A DNA stretch of 64,000 nt from a bacterium (GTDB lineage: Bacteria; Vulcanimicrobiota; JABDET01). The first letter of the stretch is position 1. Every line of letters starts with the position of its first letter. A program made the position numbers and the translations under genes. The stretch lies in contig JAKAVV010000006.1 in the NCBI GenBank assembly GCA_021817145.1, positions 83,087 to 147,086 on the forward strand, written 5' to 3'. The notes beneath the pieces were generated by a model. It did not search any database and was not told the DNA's origin. It saw only the letters and a list, made by a program, of their open reading frames with translations. Shown one piece after another: positions 5,087 through 45,490 of this stretch.

Positions 5087-5595
5087 AACCGAGACTGAAA
5101 ATGAAGCTTTCTCGAAGAGGGATTACGATTCCTGAATTTGCTTTAGTTGCTGTGGTCTTTTTTGTATTGAGTTTGCTGGCTTTCCCTATGTACACCATCT
5201 ACGTGAATGCTCAGAGGAGAAAAGTCGCCATCCATGATATGAAAAAGATTGAAATGGCGATTCAGAGATTATATGAGGACACAGGCGCTTATCCACCAGG
5301 AGTTAAATTGGGCAGCGATCCAGATTTAGTGCACAACGAGGATAATATTCCAGATTGGCAGGGGCCTTATTTAAAACATTGGGTTCATGGACCTCCGGGT
5401 TGGACAGCTCCAGGAGCTCAAGGAGCTTATCAGTATCGGAACTTTTTTTATCACGGGTATCATATTGTTGTTTTGTGGTGTTATGGCCCAAATCTGACCC
5501 CTGAAGCCGATATTACAAAAGGACCCCCTGAAAAAGGGCATCCAGTGAACTGGGGGGATAATATTGTGAAGTATATTTTATACACTCGATATTAA
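5083..5595 (+). CDS. GspG-like pseudopilin / type IV pilin
   Basis: RRG|ITIPE prepilin site, hydrophobic helix, YEDTGAYP and WQGPYLK motifs. Confidence 0.8.
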   Translation: MKPRLKMKLSRRGITIPEFALVAVVFFVLSLLAFPMYTIYVNAQRRKVAIHDMKKIEMAIQRLYEDTGAYPPGVKLGSDPDLVHNEDNIPDWQGPYLKHWVHGPPGWTAPGAQGAYQYRNFFYHGYHIVVLWCYGPNLTPEADITKGPPEKGHPVNWGDNIVKYILYTRY

Positions 5596-5596
5596 T

Positions 5597-6739
5597 TCAA
5601 CTCTGCATTAAGGACAAGTACAGCTTTTCCAGTTTTTTAGCCATGAATGAATAGTGAAATTCTCTGCTCGTTTCTTTTGCTTCTTGACTCAGCTTTTCTC
5701 GCGCTGTATCATGGGTTAAGAGTTGAATAAAAGCTCTTGAAAAAGAATCTCTGTTTTCATCAGCGAGTATTCCGTTTTTTTTATGGGTGATAATCTCTTC
5801 TGACCAGGTAGATCGGAGCGCCAGAAGAGGAACCCCGGCTGCCATTGCCTCGAGTATAGATAAGGGGTTAACCTCTGATTTAGAAGCTGTTACAAAAATT
5901 TTTGACAGGGATAGGTAATCAGGCACCTGTTCATAAGGAATCATCCCTGTGAAGATAACGGATCGAGCCAGCCCTAATTTTTGCGCTTCTTGTTCCAGTT
6001 CAGCGCGAGAAACCCCGTCTCCTATTACCATCAGGCAGGCTTCAGAAATTTCTTGAACAACTGAAACGAAAGATTCTAAAAGGAAAGAAAGGTTTTTTTC
6101 AGGAGCCAGTCTTCCAATAAAAACGGAAACTTTCCTCCCCTCTAAATGATATTTTTCAAGGACTGATTTCCCGTCTTTCTTTTGAAATTGGGAGAGCGAA
6201 ATAGCATTTGGGATGACCTGGCATTTATCCTGAATCCCATACTGCAAGATCAGTTCCTTTATAGAAGGGGTGGGTGCAATAATGGCATCGCTTTTTTTTA
6301 AAAAATGAAGAATTTTGTTCTTGATAAAAGATTTAGATATAAATTGAGGGATTCCAAAGGGGGTGTAATGCAGATAGTCATCATATCGGGTATGAAAAGT
6401 GAAAACAAGAGGGATCTTTTGCTTATGAGCTAATCTGGCTCCTGTTTCTCCCAGTAAAAAGGGGTGCTGAGTATGAACCAGATCTAGATTCAGATTTTGA
6501 ATCTTTTTGTCAAGGGCAGGTTGAAAAGGAATGGCAAGAGGAAATTTTGCTGCAGGACCAAGAGCAATGGATGGATATCGAATAACGCATGGATCGCATT
6601 CCTTGAATCCAGGATACCCAGCTGTAATCACATAAGTTTCATGCCCTAATTCTTTTAATCCTAACCTCATAAAATCAATCGCTTTTACAACACCACTGAC
6701 CATGGGGTGATAGGAGTTTGAAAAAAAGCCTATTTTCAT
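5597..6739 (-). CDS. Glycosyltransferase family 4 (diacylglycerol glucosyltransferase-like)
   Basis: YHPMVSGV, HTQHPF, FIGRLAPEKN, SEVNPLSILEAMAAG. Confidence 0.9.
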   Translation of the reverse strand: MKIGFFSNSYHPMVSGVVKAIDFMRLGLKELGHETYVITAGYPGFKECDPCVIRYPSIALGPAAKFPLAIPFQPALDKKIQNLNLDLVHTQHPFLLGETGARLAHKQKIPLVFTFHTRYDDYLHYTPFGIPQFISKSFIKNKILHFLKKSDAIIAPTPSIKELILQYGIQDKCQVIPNAISLSQFQKKDGKSVLEKYHLEGRKVSVFIGRLAPEKNLSFLLESFVSVVQEISEACLMVIGDGVSRAELEQEAQKLGLARSVIFTGMIPYEQVPDYLSLSKIFVTASKSEVNPLSILEAMAAGVPLLALRSTWSEEIITHKKNGILADENRDSFSRAFIQLLTHDTAREKLSQEAKETSREFHYSFMAKKLEKLYLSLMQS

Positions 6740-6875
6740 CTTTTATCCACAAGGAGTTAAGGGACTGAATTGGAATGAAAGAAGCGGGATTTCATGATTG
6801 GTTTTTCCATATCGTGAAAAGATAATCCTTTTAAGACTCATGGGAGCATTAAAAGGGAAAATGGGGGATTAAGGG

Positions 6876-7058
6876 TTGGATACGTTTACCTTGTTAAAAT
6901 TACGTTTAGAAAACGAACGCTCTGTAAAAGCAAAAAGCCTGCCGCGATATGAGAATCCTGTTGAACAGGAACTTATGGAACGAGAGCTTGAACTTCTGGA
7001 GGCTCAAATTGGGTGGATTATGAAGATTCAAGAAAACAGCCCCTCTCTTCAGATTTGA
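6876..7058 (+). CDS. Small hypothetical protein (60 aa)
   Basis: TTG start after purine-rich SD-like run; fills the intergenic gap; helical composition. Confidence 0.4.
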   Translation: MDTFTLLKLRLENERSVKAKSLPRYENPVEQELMERELELLEAQIGWIMKIQENSPSLQI

Positions 7059-7108
7059 TTCACTTTCTTGAAGAGAGAGGCTGTGATTACCCTGTTCTGT
7101 TCACTTCT

Positions 7109-7489
7109 TTAGTGAATTGGGATTCTTTTAGGCTGCACCTTTTCTGATTTAGGGATGGTGAGAGTTAAAACTCCGTTTTCGTATTTGGCATTGATCTTTT
7201 CTTTCTCCAGATCGCCAGACAGCATAAAGGTTCTCGTATAATCACAGGTTTCTATTTCTTTGACTAAAGGTGTCCAGTTTTTAGGAGTATCCTGGCGATT
7301 TTGCCTTTTTCCTGTAATCGTTAATTCATCTCCGCGGACTTCCAGCTCAAGATCTCCTTTTTCAAGCCCTGGCATTTCAGCTTCTAAAATCACCTCTTTG
7401 TCTGTTTCTCTAATATTCACGTAAGGAGTCGCAAATCGAACTGGTTTTTGCGTATTGACTTTATTTTGGTCTTTTACAGCTAGCAGCAT
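7109..7489 (-). CDS. Hsp20/alpha-crystallin small heat-shock protein
   Basis: EAEMPGL, AKYENGVLTLTIPK. Confidence 0.93.
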   Translation of the reverse strand: MLLAVKDQNKVNTQKPVRFATPYVNIRETDKEVILEAEMPGLEKGDLELEVRGDELTITGKRQNRQDTPKNWTPLVKEIETCDYTRTFMLSGDLEKEKINAKYENGVLTLTIPKSEKVQPKRIPIH

Positions 7490-7513
7490 AATTTTATCTC
7501 CTCCTTTCCAGAA

Positions 7514-7990
7514 TTACTGCACGTTGACATTAATTTGTTTAGGTTTAGCTTCTTCTTTTTTAGGAAGCATAATTTCTAAAACCCCATTTTTATAATTGGC
7601 TTTCACTTGAGCTGCATCAACAGGTGAGGACAGAGTAAAAGCTCTGTGAAATGAGCCGTAAAATCTCTCTGTTCTGACATAATCTTCTTCTTTTGTCTCC
7701 TGGTCATTCTTCTTTTCTCCTCTCAGGATTAAAGTGTTGTCGTGAAGAGTTACCTCGATATCTTCTTTTTTCATTCCAGGAAGATCTGCTTTCACAATGA
7801 TCTGATCTTTGGTATCATAGATGTCAATAGCCGGACTCCACATTCCCTCTAAAAGTCCTGCGCTTTTTCCTGAAAATGCGGGAAGAGATAAGTTGAAAAG
7901 ATGATTCATTTCATCTTGAAGTTTTCCTATGGTTTGGAATGGGTCCATCCAGGTTTCTGTTTCTCTCCATGGCGCTAACTCATATTTCAT
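7514..7990 (-). CDS. Hsp20/alpha-crystallin small heat-shock protein
   Basis: WSPAIDIYD, ADLPGM, ERFYGSFHRAF, ANYKNGVLEIMLPK. Confidence 0.95.
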   Translation of the reverse strand: MKYELAPWRETETWMDPFQTIGKLQDEMNHLFNLSLPAFSGKSAGLLEGMWSPAIDIYDTKDQIIVKADLPGMKKEDIEVTLHDNTLILRGEKKNDQETKEEDYVRTERFYGSFHRAFTLSSPVDAAQVKANYKNGVLEIMLPKKEEAKPKQINVNVQ

Positions 7991-8189
7991 GATAAACTCC
8001 TCCTTTTTTTACTTTTTGTGTCCGGACACTTCTATTCTCTAAACTTATTATACCTAAAAACAAAAAAAATTAAACGGGTTTTTAAAAAAAATCCTTCCCA
8101 AATTAAACCCTGTTTTTATTAAATTCGAGAGTGGAAAGGGGGGCTGAGTTTTACAGGAGAACCCTTTGAATCAGTGAAATAGTGGGAAG

Positions 8190-9431
8190 ATGAATGCTCT
8201 TATCCTGGGAGACCGAAATGCGCAGAGGATTTTTTGGGGGCAGCTTATTTCTCAATCCTGTGATATGGTCATGTCAGTTGGAATTCTCTGGGTGCTTACA
8301 GTGCAGTTCAGCCCAAGATGGATCCCATGGTTTATTGGGATCGGAGCTGTCCCCCATCTTTTTCTATCCACTTATTCAGGAAAATGGATAAAAAAACATG
8401 GCGCTCTGCGAACCGTCACTGCAGCTGATGCTTTTCGCGGTCTCCTTTTCCTTGCTGTGGGATGGGGTATTCTTTATGTTCGAACCAGTTTTAAACTGCT
8501 GATGATTCTTCTTGCTTCTACTTTTGTGTCCAATACAGCAGGAGCCTTGTTTAATCCAGCGATTTTAAGCCTGCCTGTGGAGATGATGCCTCCTGGATTG
8601 AAAAGAGATAAGCTGACCGCCCTCCTGGATTCCTGTTTTTCATTTGGGAGTGTTTTGGGTCCGCTGGTCTCTGCTCTTGTTTATTCTGCTGTCGGCCTGG
8701 GAGGGCTTTTGATCGTGAATGGGATAAGCTACTTTTTCTCTGCTTTCCTTGCTTCAGGAGTTAAACTCAGTAAACGTATTGGAGAAGTTACTCCTGAATC
8801 TTTGGATGGGGGTGGTTCTTCAGCCTCTGAATCTGGATCAAGACCTAAATCTACTTTGCAAGTGCTGAAAAGCGAACCTGTTATTTTTGGAATGTTAGGA
8901 CGCTTTCTTCTCATCAATCTTTTTTTGGCCCCAATTATGGTCTTTATGCCGTGGTATGTTAAAAATGTTTACAAGATCGGGATCGCGGGACTGGCAGCCC
9001 TCGAAGTTTGTATTGGGCTTGGAACTCTGGCAGGGAGTCTTTTGCTTTCATTCACCCCTTTTCCCGGGTTCTCTGCATGGAAGAAGATTATGACTTCGGT
9101 ATGTGTGGCAGGATTAGCCTATCTTGCTTTCAGTTTTTCGAAGGGGCTTGTTTTTGGCTCTCTGTCAGTTGGAATTCTGGGTTTTTGTCTAGGGCTTGTC
9201 AATGTCATGATCTTAACTTTTTTCCAAAACAGCCCACAGCCTCAGGACGTGCCAGTTATTATGGGTGTGGTGAATTTAATCGGTGTGGCTTCTCTCCCTA
9301 TTTCAATGGGAATAGCAGGGGCGGTTATTGAATATGTCCCTGTGAAAAGTTTAGCGATTTCGTGCGCAGTGATCATGATTGCAGTCGCAGTTTCTTTTGG
9401 ATTCATTCCAGGAATCAGGAGGATTGCATGA
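8190..9431 (+). CDS. MFS transporter (DHA3/macrolide-efflux-like)
   Basis: About 12 hydrophobic segments; ADAFRG and FNPA motifs. Confidence 0.88.
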   Translation: MNALILGDRNAQRIFWGQLISQSCDMVMSVGILWVLTVQFSPRWIPWFIGIGAVPHLFLSTYSGKWIKKHGALRTVTAADAFRGLLFLAVGWGILYVRTSFKLLMILLASTFVSNTAGALFNPAILSLPVEMMPPGLKRDKLTALLDSCFSFGSVLGPLVSALVYSAVGLGGLLIVNGISYFFSAFLASGVKLSKRIGEVTPESLDGGGSSASESGSRPKSTLQVLKSEPVIFGMLGRFLLINLFLAPIMVFMPWYVKNVYKIGIAGLAALEVCIGLGTLAGSLLLSFTPFPGFSAWKKIMTSVCVAGLAYLAFSFSKGLVFGSLSVGILGFCLGLVNVMILTFFQNSPQPQDVPVIMGVVNLIGVASLPISMGIAGAVIEYVPVKSLAISCAVIMIAVAVSFGFIPGIRRIA

Positions 9432-10585
9432 TTGACTCTATCCAAATCCAACCGGCCAGCCTTAAGGATAGAGAGGAGTTGCTGAAGCTTTATTTTTTAA
9501 CTTATGGCAGAGATTATCCCCTGGCTTATGGCACAGATTCCCAAAAAATGACAGAGGCGATCAGCTCAGAAGAGTATGAATGGCTGACTGCTCGCGATCT
9601 GAAAAATGACTCTATCATTGGCTCTATTGTCTTTGAGTTAGATCGCCTGAATAAAGTGGGAAAAGCAGCTGCTCTTGTGGTTCATCCGGATTATCGAAAA
9701 GCTGGAATTGGCTCTCAGCTTTTAGCCAGAGGGAATGCCTTAATTGGTTCTGATGGGTTCCTTAATTCGATTTACACGACGACCCGAACTCAAAATATTG
9801 GGCCCCAGTTAATCTGCCTTCGCGAAGGGTATCTCCCTTTGGGGATCTTTCCCAATGCTCATAAACTGAAAACTTATGAAACAACGACCTTGATGGTAAA
9901 GTTTAAAGAAGGAGCTCTGGAGAAACGAATTTCAATAGAAAAGATCCCCCAGAAATTGATTCCTCTTTATGAAGTCGTAAGGGAAAGGCTTCCTGAAATT
10001 AATCTTCCTAAATGCGCAGAAATGTCAAATGGGATTTCAGGACGTCTGCCTCGGAAAGAAGTTTCCTTTGAGGCGATCTTTGCTCCCAATTATGTGCTGC
10101 GCAGGTTCAGATCCGATGTCATGGATCCACAAAATCAGTTTTACCCTTTTCACTCTCCCAACCTGCTTTTAGCAGAAGAAAATGGGAATATTGAGGTTTT
10201 CGCGTTTTTTAACAAATCAGATGGATACTGCACCTTGATCTCCTTTAATCCTCCGATTTATGAGCTTGAAGATGTGATTCCCGCCCTTTTAGACAAGCTT
10301 CATGGACTTGGGGTTTCTTATGTGGAAGTTTTGGTTGGAACAGATCGAATCCAATCCATTGAGGTTTTGCTGCGTTCTCAATTTCTCCCTTCTGCTCTTT
10401 ACCCTGCCATGAGGGAAGTAAAAGGGAGAACTTATGATTTTGTGGTTATGACTCGCACCATGGAGCCTCTCAATTTCCGCGGAATGCAGATTGAGCAGGC
10501 ATTTAAACCTTATATTGACCAATATGTGAATTTATGGAAATCAATGTATTTAGAAACCCTTGAGGTATTTAGAGATTATGAATGA
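9428..10585 (+). CDS. GNAT N-acyltransferase with long C-terminal extension
   Basis: LVVHPDYRKAGIGSQLL acyl-CoA motif A; ATG 9428 overlaps the MFS stop (ATGA). Confidence 0.8.
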   Translation: MIDSIQIQPASLKDREELLKLYFLTYGRDYPLAYGTDSQKMTEAISSEEYEWLTARDLKNDSIIGSIVFELDRLNKVGKAAALVVHPDYRKAGIGSQLLARGNALIGSDGFLNSIYTTTRTQNIGPQLICLREGYLPLGIFPNAHKLKTYETTTLMVKFKEGALEKRISIEKIPQKLIPLYEVVRERLPEINLPKCAEMSNGISGRLPRKEVSFEAIFAPNYVLRRFRSDVMDPQNQFYPFHSPNLLLAEENGNIEVFAFFNKSDGYCTLISFNPPIYELEDVIPALLDKLHGLGVSYVEVLVGTDRIQSIEVLLRSQFLPSALYPAMREVKGRTYDFVVMTRTMEPLNFRGMQIEQAFKPYIDQYVNLWKSMYLETLEVFRDYE

Positions 10586-11750
10586 GATTCAGGTTCCTGA
10601 TTCTGCGGCATTGAAAAGTGTCCAATCATTGTGCGAGATCAACACTCCTTATGATTGGACAGAGCGCTCTGAGAAGTTGTTTGCAGAAGGGATGAAAGAG
10701 ATTGTAAGCTGGCATATTCGAAACAATCGTTTTTTTCGAAGTTTGATGGAATCCCGAAGTTTTACCCCTGATCAGATTAAAAATTCTGATGACTGCGCTC
10801 ATATCCCCTTTGTTTTAGCAAATTATTTCAAAACTCATGAAGAGCTTTCAATACCAAAGGATCAGATTGTTCTGCATGCCACTTCCTCTGGAACCACAGG
10901 GCAGAAATCTCAATTTTTCTTTGATGATTGGACACTTAGGGCAACACAAAGAATGATTGACTGGATTTTTGGGTTTTACGGCTGGACTTCTCCAGATAAA
11001 CCCGCTAATTATCTTCTTTATTCTTATGAGATTGAGCCAGATTTAAAGCTTGGAACCGCTTATACTGACAATTTTCTCTGCAAGTATGCCCCTGTGAATC
11101 ATCTGTTTTATGCTCTCAGAAGAACAGGCTCTGGAACCCATGAATTTGATCTTTTTGGGTGTATTGAAAAACTGATCGAGTATTCAAAAACAAAGCTTCC
11201 AGTCCGTATTTTTGGTTTTCCCGCATTCCTCCATTTTACTCTGGAACGGATGCGAGCTTTGAGAATACCCAAGCTTGAGCTTTCTCCTGATTCTCTCGTG
11301 TTTTTAGGAGGAGGATGGAAAGGGTATGCAGACCAGCAGATTGATAAACGGGAATTGTATCACAGAGTGACAGAGCAGTTAGGGATTCCTGATCACAGAC
11401 TTCGGGATGGGTTTGGTTCTGTGGAGCACAGCATTCCCTATATTGAATGCGAGTCTCACGAATTCCATGTTCCAATCTGGTCTAGAGTTTATATTCGCGA
11501 TGTGAAAACCTTGACCCCTCTTCCAACAGGTTCAGAAGGGTTTCTGCAGTTTGTCACTCCAACAGTTACCTCTGTCCCAGCTTGCAGCGTTTTAATGGGA
11601 GATTTAGCTTCCTGGTATGAAGGAAGTTCTTGTCCTTGCCCTTTATCCACTCCGTATTTTGTGGTGCATGGAAGAGCAGGTATTTCAAAAAACAAAAGCT
11701 GCGCAGTCACTGCTGCAGAGATGCTGGGTAAAGAAAGGAGCGGCCCATGA
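10578..11750 (+). CDS. LuxE-family acyl-protein synthetase
   Basis: ATSSGTTGQKS, FGFPAF, GGGWKG, RDGFGSVEH, VLMGDLA. Confidence 0.88.
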   Translation: MNEIQVPDSAALKSVQSLCEINTPYDWTERSEKLFAEGMKEIVSWHIRNNRFFRSLMESRSFTPDQIKNSDDCAHIPFVLANYFKTHEELSIPKDQIVLHATSSGTTGQKSQFFFDDWTLRATQRMIDWIFGFYGWTSPDKPANYLLYSYEIEPDLKLGTAYTDNFLCKYAPVNHLFYALRRTGSGTHEFDLFGCIEKLIEYSKTKLPVRIFGFPAFLHFTLERMRALRIPKLELSPDSLVFLGGGWKGYADQQIDKRELYHRVTEQLGIPDHRLRDGFGSVEHSIPYIECESHEFHVPIWSRVYIRDVKTLTPLPTGSEGFLQFVTPTVTSVPACSVLMGDLASWYEGSSCPCPLSTPYFVVHGRAGISKNKSCAVTAAEMLGKERSGP

Positions 11751-14293
11751 GCCCTCAGATAAAACCGCATTTATGGCAGGGAAACTGGCTGGATGATTCC
11801 GAGCTCAAAGAGGCAGTTAAGAATTTGTCCCGTATGATTAAGGATGCTCTGCAAGCTCCTCTTGACACTCGATCATTGATTCAATCTTGCGATCGGTTAA
11901 GCCAGAAATTGAAGGATGAAAAAGGGGAAATTTACGAGGTCTTATTTAGAACTTTGATAAAGGGTTCTGACATGAACCCTCTAGAGATTTCCAATGGACT
12001 TTTAGAGATTTCCGAGTTTCTGAGAGGTGAAAATCTTGAGCAGAAGCTCAAGAGAGAGTTTGGGACAATAGATCCATTCAATTTTTCTCGCCCTGACCGA
12101 AGGTTTTCGGTGTTTGAGAAGTGGGCTCCACTTGGTTTTCTTGTCCATACTGCTCCCACAAATTCTTTCAGCGTTGGGGCTTTATCTGTTGTTGAGGGGT
12201 TGCTGGCAGGGAATGTGAATTTTCTCAAAACCGGCGGTTCTGATGGACTGTTTGCGCAGTCTTTTTTGAAATTTTTGATGGATCTTGATGTATCAGGACT
12301 GACAGCTTCTAAAATTTTTGTGTGCAGAATCTCTTCTCGAGATAAAGAGCTCTTAAAAGAGATCTTTTCTCATGCGGATGGAATTGCAGCTTGGGGCGGG
12401 GAAGAGGGTGTTGAAGGGGTTAGAGCTCTTGCTCCTCCACTTGCCCGATTTATTGACTGGGGTCCAAAAATTTCATTTGCCTATTTTGCCGCAGAAAATA
12501 TTGGAAATAGGGAAGAGATCTCCCGGTTTGCCTATGACTGCTGTTTTTTAGATCAGCAGGCTTGTTCCAGCCCTCAGTGTGTTTATGTGGAAACATCAGA
12601 TTCGAGAAAACTGAAAGAGTTTGCTCTCCAGCTTGGAGCAGAACTGGAAAAAATTTCTCCCAATATCCAGAAAAAGGATCCAGATATTCATGAACAGGCA
12701 GAGATTACTTCTGTGACAGAGCTCTGCCGCCTGGAATCCTGCTTTGGTTTAACTGAAGTACTCGAAGATCAAGATAAAAGTTGGAGGATTTTAATTGATC
12801 ATGCCAGCGCTTTAAGAGCTTCTCCGCTTTTTAGAACGATCTGGGTGAAACCGATTCAAAGGGATCGGATTCTGGAGACGTTTAGACCTTTTCGATTTTA
12901 TCTTCAAACAGCTGCTCTTTCCTGCAGTCTTAATTCTTTAGCTGAAATCAGCGAGGCTCTTGTCAGAGCTGGTATTCTTCGTATTACTCCTGTTGGGAAA
13001 ATGCTGGAAAGTTATTCAGGGGAGCCCCATGATGGAGTTTATGCTCTTCAGAGGTATGCTCGCAGAATCAGTTTGCAGCTGGATCAAAAAGCAGAAGGGA
13101 TCTCCACTTTTTCGGAGCTGACTCCAGTTCTGCGCAAGCCCCCTCAGGTTCGGATTATGAGTAAACAGGAGTTTCAATCAGCCCCTCTTGATCCAGAGCG
13201 CTCCCATCTTTATTTTAAAAGCGGAGGCTCTAGCGGGGATCCGAAACTTTCTGTTTTCAGTTATAATGAATATCACCTTCAGATGAAAGCAGGGGCAGAT
13301 GGGCTTTTTGCCGCTGGGCTTGATCCAGCAAAAGATCGATGTATGAATCTCCTTTATGCTGGAGGGCTTTACGGCGGATTTGTCAGTATATTTTCGGTTT
13401 TAGAGGATTTAAATGCGGTTCAATTTCCTATGGGGGCTCATCCTGATACAAGGATGGTGGCTGAAACAATTGCCGCGCATCAGGTGAATGTTCTTATTGG
13501 AATGCCCTCTTATTTGATTCAGCTTTTTATGCAGAATTCCGATTTTTTTAAAGAGCATCCAGTAGTAGAGAAGATTTTTTATGGGGGGGAACATTTTAAT
13601 GAAGTTAAAAAGCGGCATTTTAGAAATGTTTTTGGGGTAAAGATTATTCGTTCTGCTGCTTATGGGAGTGTTGATGCTGGCCCAATTGGGTTTCAGTGCC
13701 AATACTGTGAAGGGAGTGTTCATCACCTTTTCAGCGATCTTCATGTCCTTGAGATTTTAGATTTGAATCAAGATATCTCTGTGCCTGTTGGAGAACCTGG
13801 AAGAGTGGTTTTAACTTCTCTGGCTCGAGTGGGACAGAAATTGGAAAGGTATGAGATTGGAGATACGGCTCGGCTTCTGCCTGGAGAGTGCCCTTGTGGG
13901 CGCAGATCCCCTCGATTTGAGCTTCTGGGAAGACATGGGGATGTTTTCAGAATTGGGAGCATGTTCTTTAATTACGCAAAGTTTGAAAATATTCTTGCTG
14001 AGGAGTTGAATTACACAGGTGAACTGCAAATCTTTCTCCGATCAGGAAAAGGAATAGGGAAAGAAGAGCTGCATCTTCAGCTTTCAAAGGAGAGTGGGCT
14101 GGGGCGGGAAGATGTAAAGTTAGTAAAATCTGCGATTTTGGATGGATATCAAGATCTCAAGGAAGTGGTGGATAGGGAGAAAATTCTTGATTTTACCATT
14201 TCTCTGGTCCCTTCAGTGGAATTTCAGAGAATTCCTGGCAGCGGCAAACTGCGCAGGATTGTAGATGAAAGGCTGACACAGGAAATGAAATGA
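11747..14293 (+). CDS. LuxC-type acyl-CoA reductase fused to a C-terminal PaaK-like (phenylacetate-CoA ligase family) adenylation domain
   Basis: PLGFLVHTAPTN, AWGGEEG, DQQACSSPQ (catalytic Cys); then FKSGGSSGDPK, YGSVDAG, RYEIGD, GRHGD. Confidence 0.88.
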   Translation: MSPQIKPHLWQGNWLDDSELKEAVKNLSRMIKDALQAPLDTRSLIQSCDRLSQKLKDEKGEIYEVLFRTLIKGSDMNPLEISNGLLEISEFLRGENLEQKLKREFGTIDPFNFSRPDRRFSVFEKWAPLGFLVHTAPTNSFSVGALSVVEGLLAGNVNFLKTGGSDGLFAQSFLKFLMDLDVSGLTASKIFVCRISSRDKELLKEIFSHADGIAAWGGEEGVEGVRALAPPLARFIDWGPKISFAYFAAENIGNREEISRFAYDCCFLDQQACSSPQCVYVETSDSRKLKEFALQLGAELEKISPNIQKKDPDIHEQAEITSVTELCRLESCFGLTEVLEDQDKSWRILIDHASALRASPLFRTIWVKPIQRDRILETFRPFRFYLQTAALSCSLNSLAEISEALVRAGILRITPVGKMLESYSGEPHDGVYALQRYARRISLQLDQKAEGISTFSELTPVLRKPPQVRIMSKQEFQSAPLDPERSHLYFKSGGSSGDPKLSVFSYNEYHLQMKAGADGLFAAGLDPAKDRCMNLLYAGGLYGGFVSIFSVLEDLNAVQFPMGAHPDTRMVAETIAAHQVNVLIGMPSYLIQLFMQNSDFFKEHPVVEKIFYGGEHFNEVKKRHFRNVFGVKIIRSAAYGSVDAGPIGFQCQYCEGSVHHLFSDLHVLEILDLNQDISVPVGEPGRVVLTSLARVGQKLERYEIGDTARLLPGECPCGRRSPRFELLGRHGDVFRIGSMFFNYAKFENILAEELNYTGELQIFLRSGKGIGKEELHLQLSKESGLGREDVKLVKSAILDGYQDLKEVVDREKILDFTISLVPSVEFQRIPGSGKLRRIVDERLTQEMK

Positions 14294-14315
14294 TGGAGAC
14301 TGATGGGAATAGTGT

Positions 14316-15692
14316 ATGATGAGTGGACTGCAAAATAATCTGAAAGTTTATCATTGGAAAGAAATTGTGGATTGGGCAAGAGAAAATTCCCCTTTTTACA
14401 GGGAACTTTATCACGGCATTTTCCCAGTTGAAAAACTTTCTGATCTGCCGATTGTCAATCAAGATGATTTCTGGAAAGCGAACACAATTCAGAATAATCG
14501 AGTCTTAACCTCTTCAACCCTGGATGGAATTGTTTTTAAAAGCGGAGGAACAACAGGAAATCCGAAGTTTTCAGTTTTTACTCGTGAAGAGTGGAATGAC
14601 ATGGTTCATTTGTTTGGAGAAGGAATGAGTCAGGCTGGTATTTCTAAAGGGGACAGAGTCGGTAATCTTTTTTATGTTGGGGATCTGTATGGTTCATTTA
14701 TTTTTATTATGAGATCTTTAGAATCAGGACCTATTCCAGTTCTGCAGTTTCCGATTGGGGGAGGAACTTCTCTTGATACGATTTTAAAAACGGTGAATGA
14801 CTTTCAGATTAATGTTCTGGTTGGACCACCTACCACTCTTCTGAGCGCTGCTGCGTATTATCTTGAAAACCGCTTTTTGTATCCTGATATTCGTATTGAT
14901 AAAGCCCTTTATGGGGGAGAATCTATTTATTCGGATCAGAGAGAACAGCTGCTCACAGCTTTTCCTGGAGTAAAGATTCTATCTGTTGGGTATGCTAGTG
15001 TGGATGCAGGGCTATTGGGGTATGCCGCTAAAGATTGTCAGTTGGATGAACACAGAGTTTTTGCTTCTTCAGTCATTCTTGAGATTGTGGATGAAGAAAC
15101 AGGGCAGCCAATTGAAGAGGTTGGACATCCAGGAAAACTGACTGCTACCAGTTTGACAAGAAGATTGATGCCGATTATTCGGTATCCTGTTGGGGATCGG
15201 GCTGAATGGAAAGAGCCCTTTTCAGAAGAGAAAAAGGATCGGAAATTTTTGCTTTTAGGGCGTTCTGATGATGCTGCTCGCATTGGGCCTCTTTCTGTTT
15301 ATTATGAAGATATGAGAGAGATTATTGCCGCGGCTAATACTGGGGTTCCAATCACTGCCTTTCAACTTGTGGTCCGTCATTCGAATAAAAAAGATGGATT
15401 GATTGTGCGAATGGCGGTCTTACCAGAAGAGCTCCAGGACAGAGCTTTGCAAAGCCAGGAAAGTGGAGGCAAAGTTCAGGAAAGTCGAGAAAGCAGCGGC
15501 AGAGCTTCGAAGAAGTTAGACAAAGCTTGGGAAAAGATCCTGAATCTGTTTAATCAAGAGCGTTCCGCTTATCTGCAGGCAGTAGAGCGAGATTTGATTT
15601 ATCCAATGGCTGTGGAGTGGACCACTTCTGATCAAATGAAAATCAACTTGAGGACAGGAAAGCTGAAGCGAGTGATTGATCAGCGTAAATAA
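14316..15692 (+). CDS. PaaK/phenylacetate-CoA ligase family adenylate-forming enzyme
   Basis: FKSGGTTGNPK, GYASVDAG, IIRYPVGDRA, LLGRSDD. Confidence 0.88.
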   Translation: MMSGLQNNLKVYHWKEIVDWARENSPFYRELYHGIFPVEKLSDLPIVNQDDFWKANTIQNNRVLTSSTLDGIVFKSGGTTGNPKFSVFTREEWNDMVHLFGEGMSQAGISKGDRVGNLFYVGDLYGSFIFIMRSLESGPIPVLQFPIGGGTSLDTILKTVNDFQINVLVGPPTTLLSAAAYYLENRFLYPDIRIDKALYGGESIYSDQREQLLTAFPGVKILSVGYASVDAGLLGYAAKDCQLDEHRVFASSVILEIVDEETGQPIEEVGHPGKLTATSLTRRLMPIIRYPVGDRAEWKEPFSEEKKDRKFLLLGRSDDAARIGPLSVYYEDMREIIAAANTGVPITAFQLVVRHSNKKDGLIVRMAVLPEELQDRALQSQESGGKVQESRESSGRASKKLDKAWEKILNLFNQERSAYLQAVERDLIYPMAVEWTTSDQMKINLRTGKLKRVIDQRK

Positions 15693-15814
15693 GCTTCCCC
15701 TGGGATAAAAGATTCTGCTTCTAAAGAAATTGGACTTTCATATTGACAATCTCTTACGAAATGTATTGGTTAGGTGTGGGTAGCACCTCCTGCGTAAGGT
15801 GAGGGGTATCAATT

Positions 15815-16813
15815 TTGAAAAAATGTAAAAGAAGGATAAAATGGACTGGTGAAGAATTTACTCTTATGACTAACTCAGAACCACACATCAATCCAGAGCC
15901 ACGAACTGAACCACCCTCACACATTAACCTGCAGTTAAAGCCAACAGGAACAGAACCTAAACTCCAGGCAGAACTTAAACTCCAAACAGAACCTAAGCCG
16001 CAAGTCAAATCCTTCCTCTTCTGTTCTAAAGGATCTCAAGATAATCCCTGCTCCCTTATGAAAAATGGAACAAAAAAGCGAAAACCTAAAGGATTAACCC
16101 CTTTTGACCCTGATACCATTCGCGTCCAGCGGTACTACTGCAGAACCCACCAACGCTTCTTCACTGAAATCCCTTCTTCTCTTCTGCCCAGAGTCCACTA
16201 TACTGCCCCTGTTGTCACTTTTTCTCTCGATTATTTTATCTTCCCTAAATATTTAAAATACCGCAGAACCAAACATCTCAGCCGTGGGCGTGCGTGGAGA
16301 AAAGAGCCGAAGATTCATTCCACTTCGAAGTTGAGAGAGCAGATAATGAAGAATGAAGAGTTGAAGGAAGATCTGCTGAATCGGCTGGCTAAGCAGAGGG
16401 CAGTGCAGGCAGAAATGCGGGAAGAAGGGCAGAGTAATTTGCAGGAGCAGCTGCAGGGGCAGAGCAGCCTTGAGAGGCAGAGCAGTCAGGAGTTGGCAGG
16501 GCAGAGCAGCCTTGAGGGGCAGAGCAGTCAGAAGCTGGAGAGACAGAGCAGTCTCGAAGGACAGAAGGAGCAGCTTCCTTCACTTCCTCATCAGAGGACA
16601 ATTCGCAGATGGATAAGAGTGCTTTCAGCTGGATGGGATCATCTGCATAAAACCGTGGCTCGCTATTTTGATAAATGGTGGAATCTTTTTTGGTATCGGA
16701 CGAGAAGTGGGGTTTTTGATCTTTTTTCTCTGCAGTCTTTTCTGAATGGATTATCCTGGGAGGAGAAGAGGAGAGGATCCCCTTACTACTACGCTTTTGT
16801 TCGTTCCCCGTAA
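15815..16813 (+). CDS. DUF6431-like Zn-ribbon plus HTH protein with low-complexity repeat insertions
   Basis: C...C..KNG..RK...RVQRYYCRTH..FTEIPSSLLPRVHY and RTIRRW motifs; EPKLQ and GQSSLE repeats. Confidence 0.55.
   Translation: MKKCKRRIKWTGEEFTLMTNSEPHINPEPRTEPPSHINLQLKPTGTEPKLQAELKLQTEPKPQVKSFLFCSKGSQDNPCSLMKNGTKKRKPKGLTPFDPDTIRVQRYYCRTHQRFFTEIPSSLLPRVHYTAPVVTFSLDYFIFPKYLKYRRTKHLSRGRAWRKEPKIHSTSKLREQIMKNEELKEDLLNRLAKQRAVQAEMREEGQSNLQEQLQGQSSLERQSSQELAGQSSLEGQSSQKLERQSSLEGQKEQLPSLPHQRTIRRWIRVLSAGWDHLHKTVARYFDKWWNLFWYRTRSGVFDLFSLQSFLNGLSWEEKRRGSPYYYAFVRSP
15951..16004 (+). repeat. 18-bp tandem repeat, about 3 copies (EPKLQA-like)
   Basis: cagaacctaaactccagg / cagaacttaaactccaaa / cagaacctaagccgcaag. 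Confidence 0.85.
16425..16575 (+). repeat. Alternating 18/24-bp tandem repeats (GQSSLE / RQSSQELA)
   Basis: Recurrent ggcagagcag core followed by ccttgag or tcaggag/tcagaag. Confidence 0.85.
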
Positions 16814-17065
16814 AGGGATGGGTTGACCAGTCCATTTTGTTCGTAATCGTCAATTTTCCCAAACACGCCCCCCTTGCTGTATGGAATGTGCGCTGTAAGA
16901 TTGCTCCTTGTTGTCGTACCTTTTGCTGTGTGTGGCTGCTTTTTGCTGCTTTCAAATTAAGGATGTGAACTGATGGCGATCATTGTCCTGTTTCAAAAAA
17001 ATTGGACTTTTGTTGTTGAACCTATTAGTGGGTTCATTGATTTTTCACAGTTTGGCCAATCCAGT

Positions 17066-18928: not shown

Positions 18929-20719
18929 TTGAAATCAGAAATTACCAGTATTTTGGCAACAGACTGCGGCTCAACCACAACAAAAGCGATTTTAATCGAA
19001 AAAAAAGAGGGGGAGTACAGACTCATTGTTCGTGGTGAAGCTCCTACAACAGTTGAAGCTCCTGTTGAAGATGTTACCCATGGTGTTCTGAATGCTGTTC
19101 GAGAAGTGGAAGAACTGGCAGGAAGACCTTTGTTGGAAAATGGACAGATCATAAAACCACAATTATCTGAAAAAGGAGTTGATCTTTATTTATCTACCTC
19201 AAGCGCTGGAGGTGGACTGCAGATGCTGGTTGCTGGGGTGGTTCTGGAAATTTCGGCTGAATCTGCTGCAAGAGCTGCCTTAGGGGCAGGGGCAATTGTC
19301 ATGGATGTGATTGCTGCAAATGATGGCAGAGTTCCTTATCAGAAGATTGAGAGGATTCGTTCCTTAAGACCTGACATGATTCTTTTGTCTGGAGGAATGG
19401 ATGGCGGGACTGTTTCCCATGTTGTTGAAGCAGCTCAATTGATTTCTGCAGCGGATCCAAAACCCAGACTTGGGGCAGGGTATGAGCTGCCTGTGATTTA
19501 TGCGGGGAATAAAGATGCGCGAGAAAATGTTAAACAGATTCTTGAAAACAAAACCGCTCTGCAGATTACTGAAAATTTGAGACCAACAGATAAAACCGAG
19601 AATTTAACCCCTGCCCGTCAGAGCATTCAATCTCTTTTTTTAGAGCATGTGATGGCTCATGCCCCTGGATATAGAACTTTAATGGAATGGACTGATGCTC
19701 CGATTATGCCCACTCCTGCTGCTGTAGGGATCATGATGCAGAAGATCGCTGAACAACATAAAATGAATGTTCTTGGGGCTGATATTGGAGGAGCAACAAC
19801 CGATGTCTTCTCTGTTTTTCACGGGATTTATCATCGGACCGTCAGCGCTAATCTGGGGATGAGTTATTCGATTTCCAATGTTTTTAAAGAGGCGGGATTT
19901 GAGAAGATTTTACAGTGGGTTCCTTTTGACTTAAATGAAAAAGAGTTGAGAAATAAGATTAAAAACAAGATGATTCGCCCTACCACAATCCCCCAATTAT
20001 TGGAAGAATTAATGATAGAGCAGGCTGTCTGCAGAGAAGCATTAAGGCTTTCTTTTGAGCAGCACAAACTGCTGGCTGTTGGATTGAAAGGGGTTCAGCA
20101 GGAGAGAAATATTTCCGATGCTTTTGCTCAAACTGAATCAGGAGAAACTTTAATAAAAATGATGAATTTAGATATGCTGATCGGGAGTGGAGGGGTTTTA
20201 AGTCATGCTCCTCGCCGCTCTCAAGCTGCTTTAATGATGCTCGATGCTTACCTGCCTGAAGGGATTACCTATTTGACAGTTGACAGCATTTTTATGATGC
20301 CGCAGCTAGGGGTTTTAAGTCAGGTTCACCCTGAAGCAGCCACTCAAGTTTTTGAAAAGGATTGTTTGATCTGGCTTGGTACCTGTATCGCCCCTGTTGG
20401 AGAAATGAAAGACAAGAAGCTTCTTGCAAAGATTCGTCTTCAATTTCCTGATGGAAAAAGTGAGGAGATGGTTTTGAATTTTGGAGAATTGAAAGCGATT
20501 CCATTAGGGGGAAAGGAAACCGCAAAAGTTTTTCTGCAGCCTGCTGCTGGAATTGACTGTGGAAAAGGGAAAGGGGCTTCTTTTGAGACAGAAGTAAAAG
20601 GAGGGGCTGTTGGTCTTATTTTAGATGGGAGAGGTCGTCCTTTTAATCTGCCAAAAAGCAGATCTGACAGAATGAATAAATTGAAAGAATGGAATTCCGC
20701 ATTGAATGTTTATCCATGA
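18929..20719 (+). CDS. GlmL/MutL-like (glutamate mutase L family) ASKHA ATPase
   Basis: ATDCGSTTTK, TSSAGGGL, DIGGATTDVF, RTVSANLGMSYS. Confidence 0.85.
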   Translation: MKSEITSILATDCGSTTTKAILIEKKEGEYRLIVRGEAPTTVEAPVEDVTHGVLNAVREVEELAGRPLLENGQIIKPQLSEKGVDLYLSTSSAGGGLQMLVAGVVLEISAESAARAALGAGAIVMDVIAANDGRVPYQKIERIRSLRPDMILLSGGMDGGTVSHVVEAAQLISAADPKPRLGAGYELPVIYAGNKDARENVKQILENKTALQITENLRPTDKTENLTPARQSIQSLFLEHVMAHAPGYRTLMEWTDAPIMPTPAAVGIMMQKIAEQHKMNVLGADIGGATTDVFSVFHGIYHRTVSANLGMSYSISNVFKEAGFEKILQWVPFDLNEKELRNKIKNKMIRPTTIPQLLEELMIEQAVCREALRLSFEQHKLLAVGLKGVQQERNISDAFAQTESGETLIKMMNLDMLIGSGGVLSHAPRRSQAALMMLDAYLPEGITYLTVDSIFMMPQLGVLSQVHPEAATQVFEKDCLIWLGTCIAPVGEMKDKKLLAKIRLQFPDGKSEEMVLNFGELKAIPLGGKETAKVFLQPAAGIDCGKGKGASFETEVKGGAVGLILDGRGRPFNLPKSRSDRMNKLKEWNSALNVYP

Positions 20720-45029: not shown

Positions 45030-45490
45030 TTTTTCGAGAAGCGAAAGAATCGGATCTTCAGCAAGTGATTGATCTGGCTGTTGAAGCCATTGAGCACAGT
45101 CAGTCTCCTTTTAGAAACAGCTCCTTGGAAAGTATTAAAGATTACCGCCGCAGAGATCTCGAGCAGTTAAGAGCCCTTTATGCTCAGTCCCATGTTGGAA
45201 TTTTCGTCGCAGAAGAAAAAGGAGAGATTAAAGGGCATGTGATTGTTTTGTCAGGCATGAAAGCAGTTACTGGAGAACTTCAAGGATGGATTATTGATTT
45301 AAGTGTCAGACAAGAGCTTTGGGGAACTGGAGTGGCGCAGGAGTTAACCTTAATGGCTGAAGAATTTATTCGATCAAAAGGATTTCAGCATCTTGGTCTT
45401 GGAGTGACTTCTGCGAATAAAAGAGCGATCCGATTTTATGAAAAGATGGGTTATCTAGAAGAAAGGAAGCAGATGATAAAAAAGTTATAA
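45017..45490 (+). CDS. GNAT acetyltransferase
   Basis: LSVRQELWGTGVA; NKRAIRFYEKMGY. Confidence 0.9.
   Translation: MQNLVFREAKESDLQQVIDLAVEAIEHSQSPFRNSSLESIKDYRRRDLEQLRALYAQSHVGIFVAEEKGEIKGHVIVLSGMKAVTGELQGWIIDLSVRQELWGTGVAQELTLMAEEFIRSKGFQHLGLGVTSANKRAIRFYEKMGYLEERKQMIKKL

What the first reader, a model, noticed from the sequence alone, without database searches (positions are those of the whole stretch)
11747..14293. Reductase-first fusion: LuxC acyl reductase with a C-terminal PaaK-like ligase
Seen: one 848-aa ORF with the LuxC half N-terminal and a complete PaaK-like half paralogous to the next gene (both have FKSGG, SVDAG where YGxTE is usual, and RYxxGD). Inference: a self-loading acid-to-aldehyde reductase, functionally analogous to carboxylic acid reductases but built from unrelated folds and without a carrier domain; the downstream paralogue may load a second substrate.
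Basis: partly seen in the sequence, partly recalled or inferred. Interest (0 to 1): 0.55.

Follow-up and report, generated by a model that had tools for sequence, protein, structure and literature searches.

The report
LeupB-type reductase–ligase of leupeptin-like operon
The 848-residue reductase–ligase fusion is real, but it is a distant relative of LeupB from the known leupeptin (protease-inhibitor) operon, so it is a new member of a known carrier-free peptide-aldehyde pathway, not a new kind of enzyme.

Summary
Window 11747-14293 (+) is one uninterrupted 848-aa ORF. It has a LuxC (ALDH-fold) reductase half with catalytic Cys273 and a PaaK-type adenylating half with every core motif. The ligase half lacks only the first ~55 residues of free-standing PaaK enzymes.

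The architecture is neither rare nor new. More than 1500 protein clusters and at least 591 species genomes carry it, nearly always inside the cassette MFS / GNAT / LuxE-like / fusion / PaaK-like.

I recovered the characterised Klebsiella leupeptin operon from metagenome contigs, using the two published leupAB primers (exact 1,235-bp amplicon). It encodes LeupA = LuxE-like (49% identical to the window's), LeupB = the same LuxC::PaaK fusion (37% over the full length, E 6e-180), LeupC = PaaK-like (40%) and LeupD = GNAT.

Most likely reading: the two PaaK-type ligases make amide bonds. The LuxE-like enzyme activates the final carboxylate on its conserved C-terminal Cys and hands it to the fused LuxC domain for NADPH reduction. 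The product is an N-acyl peptide aldehyde that the MFS pump exports. The "self-loading reductase" idea is less likely but not excluded.

This scan has met the same cassette at least 21 times on other DNA, with the same reading. Novelty: new member of a known kind. The product here is unknown. The GNAT (385 aa, apparently tandem) and the MFS differ from those of leup.

The parts
8190..9431 (+). MFS transporter (413 aa), probable exporter of the product
   Evidence: Pfam MFS_1 E 4e-20 and NCBIfam 2A0121 H+ antiporter. A homologue lies in the cassette in 50 of 80 loci. It is not similar to the leup-linked MFS of Klebsiella (E 0.66).
9428..10585 (+). GNAT acyltransferase, 385 aa from ATG 9428 (the ORF is open from GTG 9362), apparently a tandem GNAT
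   Evidence: Pfam Acetyltransf_1 at residues 51-145 of the long ORF. The ATG at 9428 overlaps the MFS stop by 4 bp, and homologues are 383-390 aa. AF2 model pLDDT 87.9. The N-terminal domain matches GNAT structures; tandem-GNAT proteins 2wpw and 3tt2 match weakly over the full length. Only the N-terminal domain aligns to LeupD (hhalign 95%).
10560..11750 (+). LuxE-like acyl-protein synthetase (LeupA homologue); start is TTG 10560 or ATG 10578
   Evidence: Pfam LuxE E 4e-25. 49% identical to Klebsiella LeupA. It aligns to P. phosphoreum LuxE 7xc6_E with GGGWK (the Lys238 equivalent) and Cys381 (the Cys364 equivalent). Both residues are invariant in 82 of 82 homologues. Its stop overlaps the fusion's ATG (ATGA).
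11747..14293 (+). LuxC::PaaK-type fusion (848 aa), LeupB homologue; this is the finding
   Evidence: 37% identity over 847 columns to Klebsiella LeupB, E 6e-180. AF2 pLDDT 83.4, pTM 0.75.
11864..13063 (+). LuxC (ALDH-fold) acyl-thioester reductase domain, residues 40-439; catalytic Cys273 is the codon at 12563-12565
   Evidence: Pfam LuxC. Aligned to LuxC 7xc6_A with DQQAC on YDQQAC, so Cys273 corresponds to Cys296 in the paper's numbering (PMC9157457). C273, Q270 and N139 are invariant in 19 diverse homologues.
13064..13213 (+). Linker plus the remnant of the PaaK N-terminal region (residues 440-489), with invariant K473 and F476
   Evidence: Mostly coil in the AF2 model. Invariant columns are listed. 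The alignment to P0002 begins here at P0002 residue 58.
13214..14290 (+). PaaK-type adenylating ligase domain (residues 490-848): P-loop 490-500, YGSVDAG 639-645, RYEIGD 701-706, CPCGR 715-719, hinge GRHGD 728-732, catalytic Lys834 (codon 14246-14248)
   Evidence: NCBIfam matches. PDB sequence matches to PaaK-family ligases. Foldseek to BT_0428 and PaaK1 with TMt 0.72, and also to NatL2, AjiA1 and ClxA. Motif conservation in 83 fused domains.
14316..15692 (+). Free-standing PaaK-type ligase (458 aa), LeupC homologue
   Evidence: NCBIfam PaaK-type matches. 40% identical to Klebsiella LeupC. It forms a clade separate from the fused ligases (support 99). Present in 75 of 80 loci; the five without it have contigs that end just after the fusion.

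Best explanation
P0001 is a LeupB-type bifunctional enzyme in a five-gene, NRPS-independent and carrier-free operon (MFS, GNAT, LuxE-like, LuxC::ligase, PaaK-like ligase). The operon most likely builds and exports a small N-acylated peptide aldehyde of the leupeptin type.

Proposed division of labour, which is inferred and not shown:
- The GNAT caps the first amino acid with an acyl group from acyl-CoA.
- The two PaaK-type ligases (the free one and the domain fused to LuxC) each adenylate a carboxylate and couple it directly to the amine of the next amino acid.
- The LuxE-like enzyme adenylates the C-terminal carboxylate of the finished peptide acid and moves it onto its own C-terminal Cys381.
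- That flexible tail delivers the acyl group to Cys273 of the LuxC domain.
- NADPH releases the product as the aldehyde, and the MFS pump exports it.

Shown here: the domain content, the catalytic residues, homology of each of the four enzymes to LeupA-D, and conservation of the cassette across phyla. Inferred: which ligase does which step, the substrates and the product.
For: (1) Identity of the comparator. The published primers leupA_f and leupB_r (PMC8283571) lie 1,235 bp apart in metagenome contigs L088 and L089, exactly the published amplicon. The genes behind them span about 5.83 kb, as published.
(2) That operon encodes MFS, a LuxE-like protein, an 803-aa LuxC+AMP-binding fusion, a PaaK-like protein and a GNAT.
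(3) Window versus Klebsiella: the fusion is 37% identical over the full length (E 6e-180), LuxE 49%, PaaK-like 40%, and the GNAT N-domain 26% (hhalign 95%).
(4) Tree. LuxE-like, free PaaK-like and fused ligase domains each form one clade (support 100, 99 and 90). The Klebsiella Leup proteins fall inside the matching clades, so the paralogues are ancient and orthologous to LeupA, LeupB-C and LeupC.
(5) Cassette conservation in 80 loci from Melainabacteria, Bdellovibrionota, Actinomycetota, Pseudomonadota, Elusimicrobiota and Bacteroidota: LuxE in 79, PaaK-like in 75, GNAT in 69, MFS in 50.
(6) Catalytic residues are kept in all three adenylating proteins and in LuxC.
(7) Literature. [quoted passage not shown] 2020). 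LuxE passes the acyl group from its C-terminal Cys to the LuxC Cys (PMC9157457).
(8) LuxE-LuxC pairs occur without any fused ligase, so the reductive module is LuxE+LuxC and the ligase is an addition.
(9) Streptomyces roseus ATCC 31245, a leupeptin producer (PMC10548850), carries the five-gene cassette with the window's GNAT and MFS types (L070).
Against: No enzyme of this cassette type has been assayed here, and I could not read Li et al. 2020, so the step assignment rests on counting enzymes against bonds. The GNAT (385 aa, apparently tandem) shares only its first domain with LeupD, and the MFS is unrelated in sequence to the leup-linked one. Capping and product may therefore differ. Identity to LeupB is only 37%. 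In the congeneric genome G001 the free PaaK-like gene lies on another contig, so the operon is not fixed. LuxC enzymes can also accept acyl-CoA (PMC9157457), so a route through CoA made by the fused ligase is not excluded.
Confidence: 0.7

Rival explanations
1. Self-loading reductase. The fused PaaK-type domain adenylates the acid and passes it in cis to Cys273 of the LuxC domain. The LuxE-like protein and the free ligase then carry out the amide couplings.
For: The covalent fusion of a complete adenylating core with the reductase is kept in more than 1500 clusters, which suggests functional coupling between the halves. No carrier domain is present in any of the five proteins.
Against: The LuxE-like protein keeps the acyl-carrying C-terminal Cys and the GGGWK Lys in 82 of 82 cases and is translationally coupled to the fusion. 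LuxE lacks the C-terminal subdomain that amide- or thioester-forming ANL enzymes use (PMC9157457), which makes it an unlikely peptide ligase. Unfused LuxE-LuxC pairs exist. The fused domain's nearest structural relatives include CoA-independent coupling ligases NatL2, AjiA1 and ClxA; their chemistry is from my own knowledge.
Confidence: 0.12
2. CoA route. The fused ligase makes an acyl- or peptidyl-CoA thioester, as PaaK does, and the LuxC domain reduces it as an acyl-CoA reductase. The LuxE-like enzyme serves another step or is redundant.
For: PaaK-family homology. LuxC accepts acyl-CoA as an alternative substrate (PMC9157457). RefSeq names these proteins 'acyl-CoA reductase'.
Against: This leaves one amide bond without a ligase in the leupeptin model and leaves the invariant LuxE Cys unexplained. 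The A5 motif carries Asp instead of Glu in all 83 fused and 77 free ligases, a clade-specific change shared with LeupB and LeupC that marks them off from the usual YGxTE motif.
Confidence: 0.1
3. The cassette is a lux-type fatty aldehyde (or other lipid aldehyde/alcohol) system unrelated to peptides.
For: LuxC and LuxE Pfam families. RefSeq attaches the GO term 'bioluminescence' to homologues.
Against: No LuxD family match in the 97%-complete genome. Identity to real LuxC and LuxE is low: E 1e-15 to 7xc6 chains, and scores far below the NCBIfam equivalog cut-offs (94 against 750 bits). Each protein is a much closer relative of LeupA-C.
Confidence: 0.05

Closest known systems
LeupB of the leupeptin operon (MFS + leupABCD) of Klebsiella michiganensis/oxytoca, also reported in Photorhabdus and Xenorhabdus (Li et al. 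2020, Angew Chem 59:17872; cited in PMC8283571, PMC11480411, PMC11212599)
   Same: The same two-domain order, LuxC then PaaK-type ligase, collinear over the full length (37% identity, E 6e-180). The same catalytic Cys, P-loop, YGSVDAG, RYxIGD, CxCG, hinge and catalytic Lys. The same partners: a LuxE-like gene directly upstream, a free PaaK-like ligase, a GNAT and an MFS.
   Different: 848 versus 803 aa. Gene order is MFS-GNAT-LuxE-fusion-PaaK here and MFS-LuxE-fusion-PaaK-GNAT in Klebsiella. The GNAT is 385 aa and apparently tandem versus 305 aa, alignable only in the first domain. The MFS is unrelated in sequence. The host is an uncultured lineage, not an enterobacterium. The product is unknown.
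LuxC-LuxE fatty acid reductase of luminous bacteria (Photobacterium phosphoreum, PDB 7XC6; PMC9157457)
   Same: ALDH-fold reductase with the DQQAC cysteine. The partner synthetase has the GGGWK lysine and a C-terminal acyl-carrying cysteine. The chemistry is ATP- and NADPH-dependent acid-to-aldehyde conversion without a phosphopantetheine carrier.
   Different: Distant in sequence (phmmer E about 1e-15). No LuxD and no luciferase genes in the operon. An extra adenylating domain is fused to the reductase. The substrate is probably a peptide acid, not myristate.
PaaK-family adenylating enzymes: phenylacetate-CoA ligase PaaK1 (2Y27), BT_0428 (4R1L), and the CoA-independent coupling ligases NatL2 (6TM4), AjiA1 (6WUQ) and ClxA (9S3L)
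   Same: The fold of residues ~470-848 (Foldseek TMt 0.72 to BT_0428, 0.70 to PaaK1, 0.62-0.66 to NatL2, AjiA1 and ClxA). Both the core and the C-terminal subdomain are present.
   Different: About 20% identity. Lacks the N-terminal ~55 residues. Asp replaces the usual Glu of the A5 motif. It is fused behind a reductase.
Carboxylic acid reductases (CAR; adenylation - carrier - SDR-type reductase)
   Same: Net reaction: acid + ATP + NADPH gives aldehyde, with an adenylating domain and a reductase on one chain.
   Different: Opposite domain order. No phosphopantetheine carrier domain. The reductase is ALDH/LuxC-fold, not SDR. In the favoured reading the fused ligase does not feed the reductase at all. 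This is an analogy only.

Membership tests
LeupB-type LuxC::PaaK fusion (leupeptin-type pathway) | Single polypeptide with an N-terminal LuxC domain and a C-terminal PaaK-type ANL domain, collinear with LeupB | tested here: met
   Pfam on both proteins. BLASTP 37% identity over 847 columns, E 6e-180.
LeupB-type LuxC::PaaK fusion (leupeptin-type pathway) | Catalytic residues of both halves retained (LuxC Cys; ANL P-loop, A5, A8, hinge, A10 Lys) | tested here: met
   C273, S492-K500, Y639-G645, R701-D706, G728-D732 and K834 are invariant or nearly so in 19 and in 83 homologues, and are aligned to LeupB.
LeupB-type LuxC::PaaK fusion (leupeptin-type pathway) | Operon partners: LeupA-like (LuxE), LeupC-like (PaaK-type ligase), an acetyltransferase and a transporter | tested here: met
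   Window genes at 8190-15692. Identity 49% to LeupA and 40% to LeupC. The GNAT is related only in its N-terminal domain, and the MFS belongs to a different lineage.
LeupB-type LuxC::PaaK fusion (leupeptin-type pathway) | Phylogenetic placement of each adenylating protein with the corresponding Leup protein | tested here: met
   Quick ML tree of 66 rows gives three clades with support 100, 99 and 90, each holding the Klebsiella protein. The careful search did not finish.
LeupB-type LuxC::PaaK fusion (leupeptin-type pathway) | Product is leupeptin or another N-acyl peptide aldehyde | not testable with these tools
   Needs expression and mass spectrometry. [quoted passage not shown]
Lux fatty acid reductase complex (LuxCDE) | LuxC and LuxE at equivalog level, with LuxD acyl-transferase and luciferase genes | tested here: not met
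   NCBIfam LuxC equivalog scores 94 bits against a cut-off of 750, and LuxE 79 against 550. No PF02273 (LuxD) match in the 97%-complete genome. No luciferase gene lies in the operon.
Phenylacetate-CoA ligase PaaK (equivalog) | Full-length match above the curated cut-off | tested here: not met
   TIGR02155 scores 60 bits against a cut-off of 646, and the match starts at profile position 82.
Carboxylic acid reductase (A-T-R) | Phosphopantetheine carrier domain and an SDR-type terminal reductase | tested here: not met
   No PP-binding or NAD_binding_4 match in P0001 or its neighbours. The reductase half matches LuxC/ALDH.

The most novel reading that the evidence does not exclude
In this widespread cassette type (385-aa apparently tandem GNAT plus its own MFS, found from Melainabacteria-like MAGs to Streptomyces), the fusion could do something the enterobacterial leup model does not predict. 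One possibility is that the fused ligase hands its adenylate or product directly to the LuxC active site, a true carrier-free, single-chain acid reductase. Another is that the operon makes a new class of capped peptide aldehyde rather than leupeptin. The biochemistry of LeupB-type proteins has, as far as I could find, not been dissected in vitro.
Probability: 0.15. Interest if true: 0.6.

Novelty: new member of a known kind. Interest (0 to 1): 0.3.

Why it matters
Peptide aldehydes such as leupeptin are widely used protease inhibitors, and most are made by NRPS with a terminal reductase. The leup route builds them from free-standing ANL ligases and a LuxE/LuxC pair with no carrier protein. This window adds one more distant member. 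Together with the survey done here, it shows that the LeupB architecture and its cassette occur in at least 591 species across at least six phyla, including the classical leupeptin producer Streptomyces roseus. That breadth matters for genome mining, because RefSeq labels these genes only 'acyl-CoA reductase', some with the GO term 'bioluminescence'. It also matters for enzymology of carrier-free amide formation and reduction. The single finding is not itself a discovery of a new system.

Tried and rejected
Neighbourhoods were taken instead from the search for related loci and my own ORF/BLAST scripts.
- Li et al. 2020 is not held. Its enzymology is known to me only through one sentence in PMC11212599 and from memory.
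- The Klebsiella primers do not match the Salmonella plasmid cassette. That cassette is a relative, not the same operon.
- The promoter/terminator scan of 7400-16200 gave nothing above the shuffled expectation.
- Pfam finds nothing in the C-terminal 238 residues of the GNAT or in the C-terminal 175 residues of LeupD, even at E 10.
- Taxonomy of the host could not be named. The GlyS search gave only unnamed metagenome relatives down to 41% identity; the named hits lie at about 36-43% (Bacillota, Armatimonadota). Kinship is not reported for genomes reached through loci. I considered 'Melainabacteria' because the cassette's nearest relatives are Obscuribacterales MAGs, but this may reflect transfer of the cassette.
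- The idea of a recent tandem duplication of the ligase was rejected: the fused and free ligases are deep, separate clades.
- A lux fatty-aldehyde system was rejected.
Full report
**1. The observation**

Window 11747-14293 (+) is one open frame of 848 codons. Pfam places a LuxC domain at residues 40-439 (E 4e-85) and an AMP-binding domain at 468-689. NCBIfam models of the PaaK, F390-synthetase and DVU_1553 type match residues 490-842.

- FKSGGSSGDPK at 490-500
- YGSVDAG at 639-645
- RYEIGD at 701-706
- DQQAC with Cys273

The next gene (14316-15692, 458 aa) carries FKSGGTTGNPK, YASVDAG and RYPVGD. The fused ligase half and that gene's product are 31% identical (E 5e-45).

One correction is needed. 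The fused half aligns to the free paralogue only from the paralogue's residue 58, and it enters PaaK profiles at about position 82-95. It therefore lacks the N-terminal ~55 residues of free-standing PaaK-type enzymes. The adenylating core, the hinge and the C-terminal subdomain with the catalytic lysine (K834) are complete.

An AlphaFold model built on 19 homologues is confident (pLDDT 83.4, pTM 0.75). Its C-terminal half superposes on PaaK-family structures: TMt 0.72 for BT_0428, 0.70 for PaaK1, and lower for NatL2, AjiA1 and ClxA. Its N-terminal half matches LuxC of PDB 7XC6.

Sequence alignment to 7XC6 puts Cys273 on the catalytic cysteine of LuxC. This is Cys296 in the numbering of PMC9157457, 11 more than the position in the deposited chain.

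**2. The fusion is not an artefact and not rare**

A search of the 5.8-billion-protein collection returned 1564 relatives among the candidates scored. The best 120 are all two-domain proteins; all but three (689-739 aa) are 806-899 aa. In an alignment of 19 diverse members the junction itself holds invariant residues (K473, F476), and the catalytic residues of both halves are invariant.

They include Obscuribacterales MAGs, Bdellovibrionota, many Streptomyces and Kitasatospora, Massilia, Elusimicrobiota and Bacteroidales.

**3. Surroundings**

The fusion sits in a tightly packed plus-strand operon:
- MFS transporter, 8190-9431
- GNAT, ATG 9428 to 10585 (4-bp overlap with the MFS stop)
- LuxE-like acyl-protein synthetase, to 11750 (its stop overlaps the fusion's ATG)
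- the fusion
- the free PaaK-type ligase, after a 22-bp gap

In the 80 best loci from other genomes, counts by my own ORF calling and BLAST were:

| Partner | Loci with it | Note |
|---|---|---|
| LuxE-like gene | 79 of 80 | The exception is cut by the contig start. It ends just upstream on the same strand in 78. |
| Free PaaK-type ligase | 75 of 80 | The five exceptions have contigs that end right after the fusion. |
| This GNAT type | 69 of 80 | |
| MFS | 50 of 80 | |
| All five genes | 48 of 80 | |

**4. What it is: the test against the leupeptin operon**

The enzyme set (one acyltransferase, three adenylating enzymes, one thioester reductase, one pump) and the presence of Streptomyces roseus ATCC 31245 among the loci suggested leupeptin, which is acetyl-Leu-Leu-argininal. 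I noted the idea, before consulting earlier findings.

The literature held here says three things:
- Leupeptin in gammaproteobacteria comes from an operon leupABCD with an adjacent transporter. It spans positions 315,353-321,183 of K. oxytoca CAV1374 (PMC8283571).
[quoted passage not shown] 2020).
- The original paper itself is not held.

To get the sequence, I scanned metagenome contigs for the published primer leupB_r and found eight contigs. Seven hold both primers. In L088 and L089 they are 1,235 bp apart, the published amplicon size.

L088 encodes, in order:
- an MFS transporter
- a 378-aa LuxE-family protein (LeupA)
- an 803-aa LuxC + AMP-binding fusion (LeupB)
- a 446-aa PaaK-type ligase (LeupC)
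- a 305-aa GNAT (LeupD)

The four enzyme genes span about 5.83 kb, as published.

Window proteins compared with these:

| Window protein | Klebsiella protein | Result |
|---|---|---|
| Fusion | LeupB | 37% identity over 847 columns, E 6e-180 |
| LuxE-like | LeupA | 49% identity |
| Free ligase | LeupC | 40% identity |
| GNAT | LeupD | Only the N-terminal domain aligns (26%; profile comparison 95% probability) |
| MFS | leup-linked MFS | No significant similarity |

The Asp is invariant in all 83 fused and 77 free ligases examined.

**5. Paralogy is ancient**

I built a maximum-likelihood tree of 66 LuxE-like, free and fused ligase sequences from 22 cassettes. This was the quick search; the careful one did not finish. 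Each type is a single clade (support 100, 99 and 90).

The Klebsiella and Salmonella-plasmid proteins lie inside each clade. The window's three proteins are each sister to those of two Obscuribacterales MAGs. The fused ligase and the next gene are therefore old paralogues, orthologous to the LeupB C-half and to LeupC. They are not a recent duplication, and the cassette has largely been inherited or transferred as a unit.

**6. How it most likely works**

Established knowledge (PMC9157457): LuxE adenylates the acid and moves it to a cysteine in its flexible C-terminal tail. It delivers the acyl group to the LuxC cysteine, and NADPH releases the aldehyde. LuxE lacks the C-terminal subdomain of other adenylate-forming enzymes and uses a lysine in a GGGWK loop.

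The window's LuxE-like protein aligns to LuxE with both that lysine and the tail cysteine (Cys381) in place. Both are invariant in 82 of 82 cassette homologues.

LuxE-LuxC pairs without any fused ligase also exist. Examples are a Chloroflexota plasmid, and a Streptomyces europaeiscabiei plasmid where the pair lies next to YcaO and DUF692 genes.

I therefore read LuxE + LuxC as the reductive module. The two PaaK-type ligases are the amide-bond formers, which for leupeptin matches the count of two peptide bonds. The GNAT supplies the N-acyl cap and the MFS exports the product.

This assignment is inference. The self-loading alternative and a route through CoA are not excluded; I give them about 0.12 and 0.10.

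**7. Differences from leup, and variants**

- The gene order differs: the GNAT comes first here and last in Klebsiella.
- The GNAT of this cassette type is 385 aa. It is modelled with pLDDT 87.9 as two alpha/beta halves. The first half is a clear GNAT, and the whole matches tandem-GNAT proteins weakly.
- This GNAT type is shared by the Melainabacteria-like, Bdellovibrionota, Massilia and Streptomyces cassettes.
- S. roseus ATCC 31245, confirmed as a leupeptin producer in PMC10548850, carries this cassette type on NZ_LFML01000044.1 (L070). Identities to the window are 45% for the fusion, 56% for LuxE and 40% for the free ligase.
- Within the window's own phylum a second, more distant family occurs: GNAT - LuxE - LuxC fused to a full-length PaaK-type ligase, about 894 aa and 30% identical, with no second ligase nearby in the stretches fetched.
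- In the congeneric genome G001 the block MFS-GNAT-LuxE-fusion (75-83% identical) lies in different flanks. The free ligase (69%) is on another contig.

**8. Host**

The genome is 2.66 Mb in 42 contigs, 97% complete, with about 40% GC in this window. I could not name it. A housekeeping protein (GlyS) has only unnamed metagenome relatives down to 41% identity; the named hits lie at about 36-43%.

**9. Verdict**

Its core claim does not hold, because the fusion is the LeupB architecture of a known pathway and the probable loader of the reductase is the neighbouring LuxE-like enzyme.

The same cassette has been flagged at least 21 times in this scan on other genomes, and the follow-ups seen reached the same reading. 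I confirmed that reading here with an independent sequence test. Novelty: new member of a known kind. Interest: modest.

Noticed in passing
L070 (Streptomyces roseus ATCC 31245, NZ_LFML01000044.1), about 4836-12502 of the locus: The classical leupeptin producer carries the full PaaK-like / MFS / GNAT / LuxE / LuxC::ligase cassette. A 2020 preprint attributed leupeptin in this strain to an NRPS cluster. The passages of the published 2023 version that I retrieved no longer describe that knock-out. This cassette is a candidate for the Streptomyces leupeptin genes.
   Followed up: partly
L085 5680-11438 and L084 5680-10557 (Salmonella enterica IncF plasmids CP054717.1 and CP053580.1): Conjugative Salmonella plasmids carry a leup-like operon: LuxE-like, an 802-aa LuxC::ligase, a PaaK-like ligase, and in CP054717 a GNAT. 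It is sister to the Klebsiella leup genes in the tree but does not match the published Klebsiella primers.
   Followed up: partly
L102 4792-9792 (G008) and L101 7531-10209 (G020), same phylum as the window: A second, distant family of the same architecture: GNAT - LuxE - LuxC fused to a full-length PaaK-type ligase (about 894 aa, 30% identical). No second ligase lies nearby in the stretches fetched. It may be a shorter version of the pathway with one amide bond fewer.
   Followed up: partly
L103 7309-13510 and L104 5750-7072 (congeneric genome G001): In the sister genome the MFS-GNAT-LuxE-fusion block lies among unrelated neighbours, and the free PaaK-type ligase (69% identical) is on another contig. 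In the window a DUF6431 insertion element (15727-17010, described by an earlier finding) lies directly after that ligase.
   Followed up: partly
L095 1-7359 (Streptomyces europaeiscabiei plasmid NZ_CP109155.1): An unfused LuxE-LuxC pair lies directly downstream of YcaO-like, MBL-fold and DUF692 genes. This suggests a LuxE/LuxC reductive module recruited to a RiPP-like cluster.
   Followed up: no
window 9428-10585: The cassette's GNAT has a conserved C-terminal half of about 200 residues with no Pfam match, even at E 10. It is modelled as a second GNAT-like alpha/beta domain. LeupD's C-terminal 175 residues are likewise unassigned and do not align to it.
   Followed up: partly
window 45490-46995 and 18929-20719: The same window holds a histidine ammonia-lyase (HutH, E 1e-206) and a GlmL-family protein. 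They are not linked to the operon.
   Followed up: no
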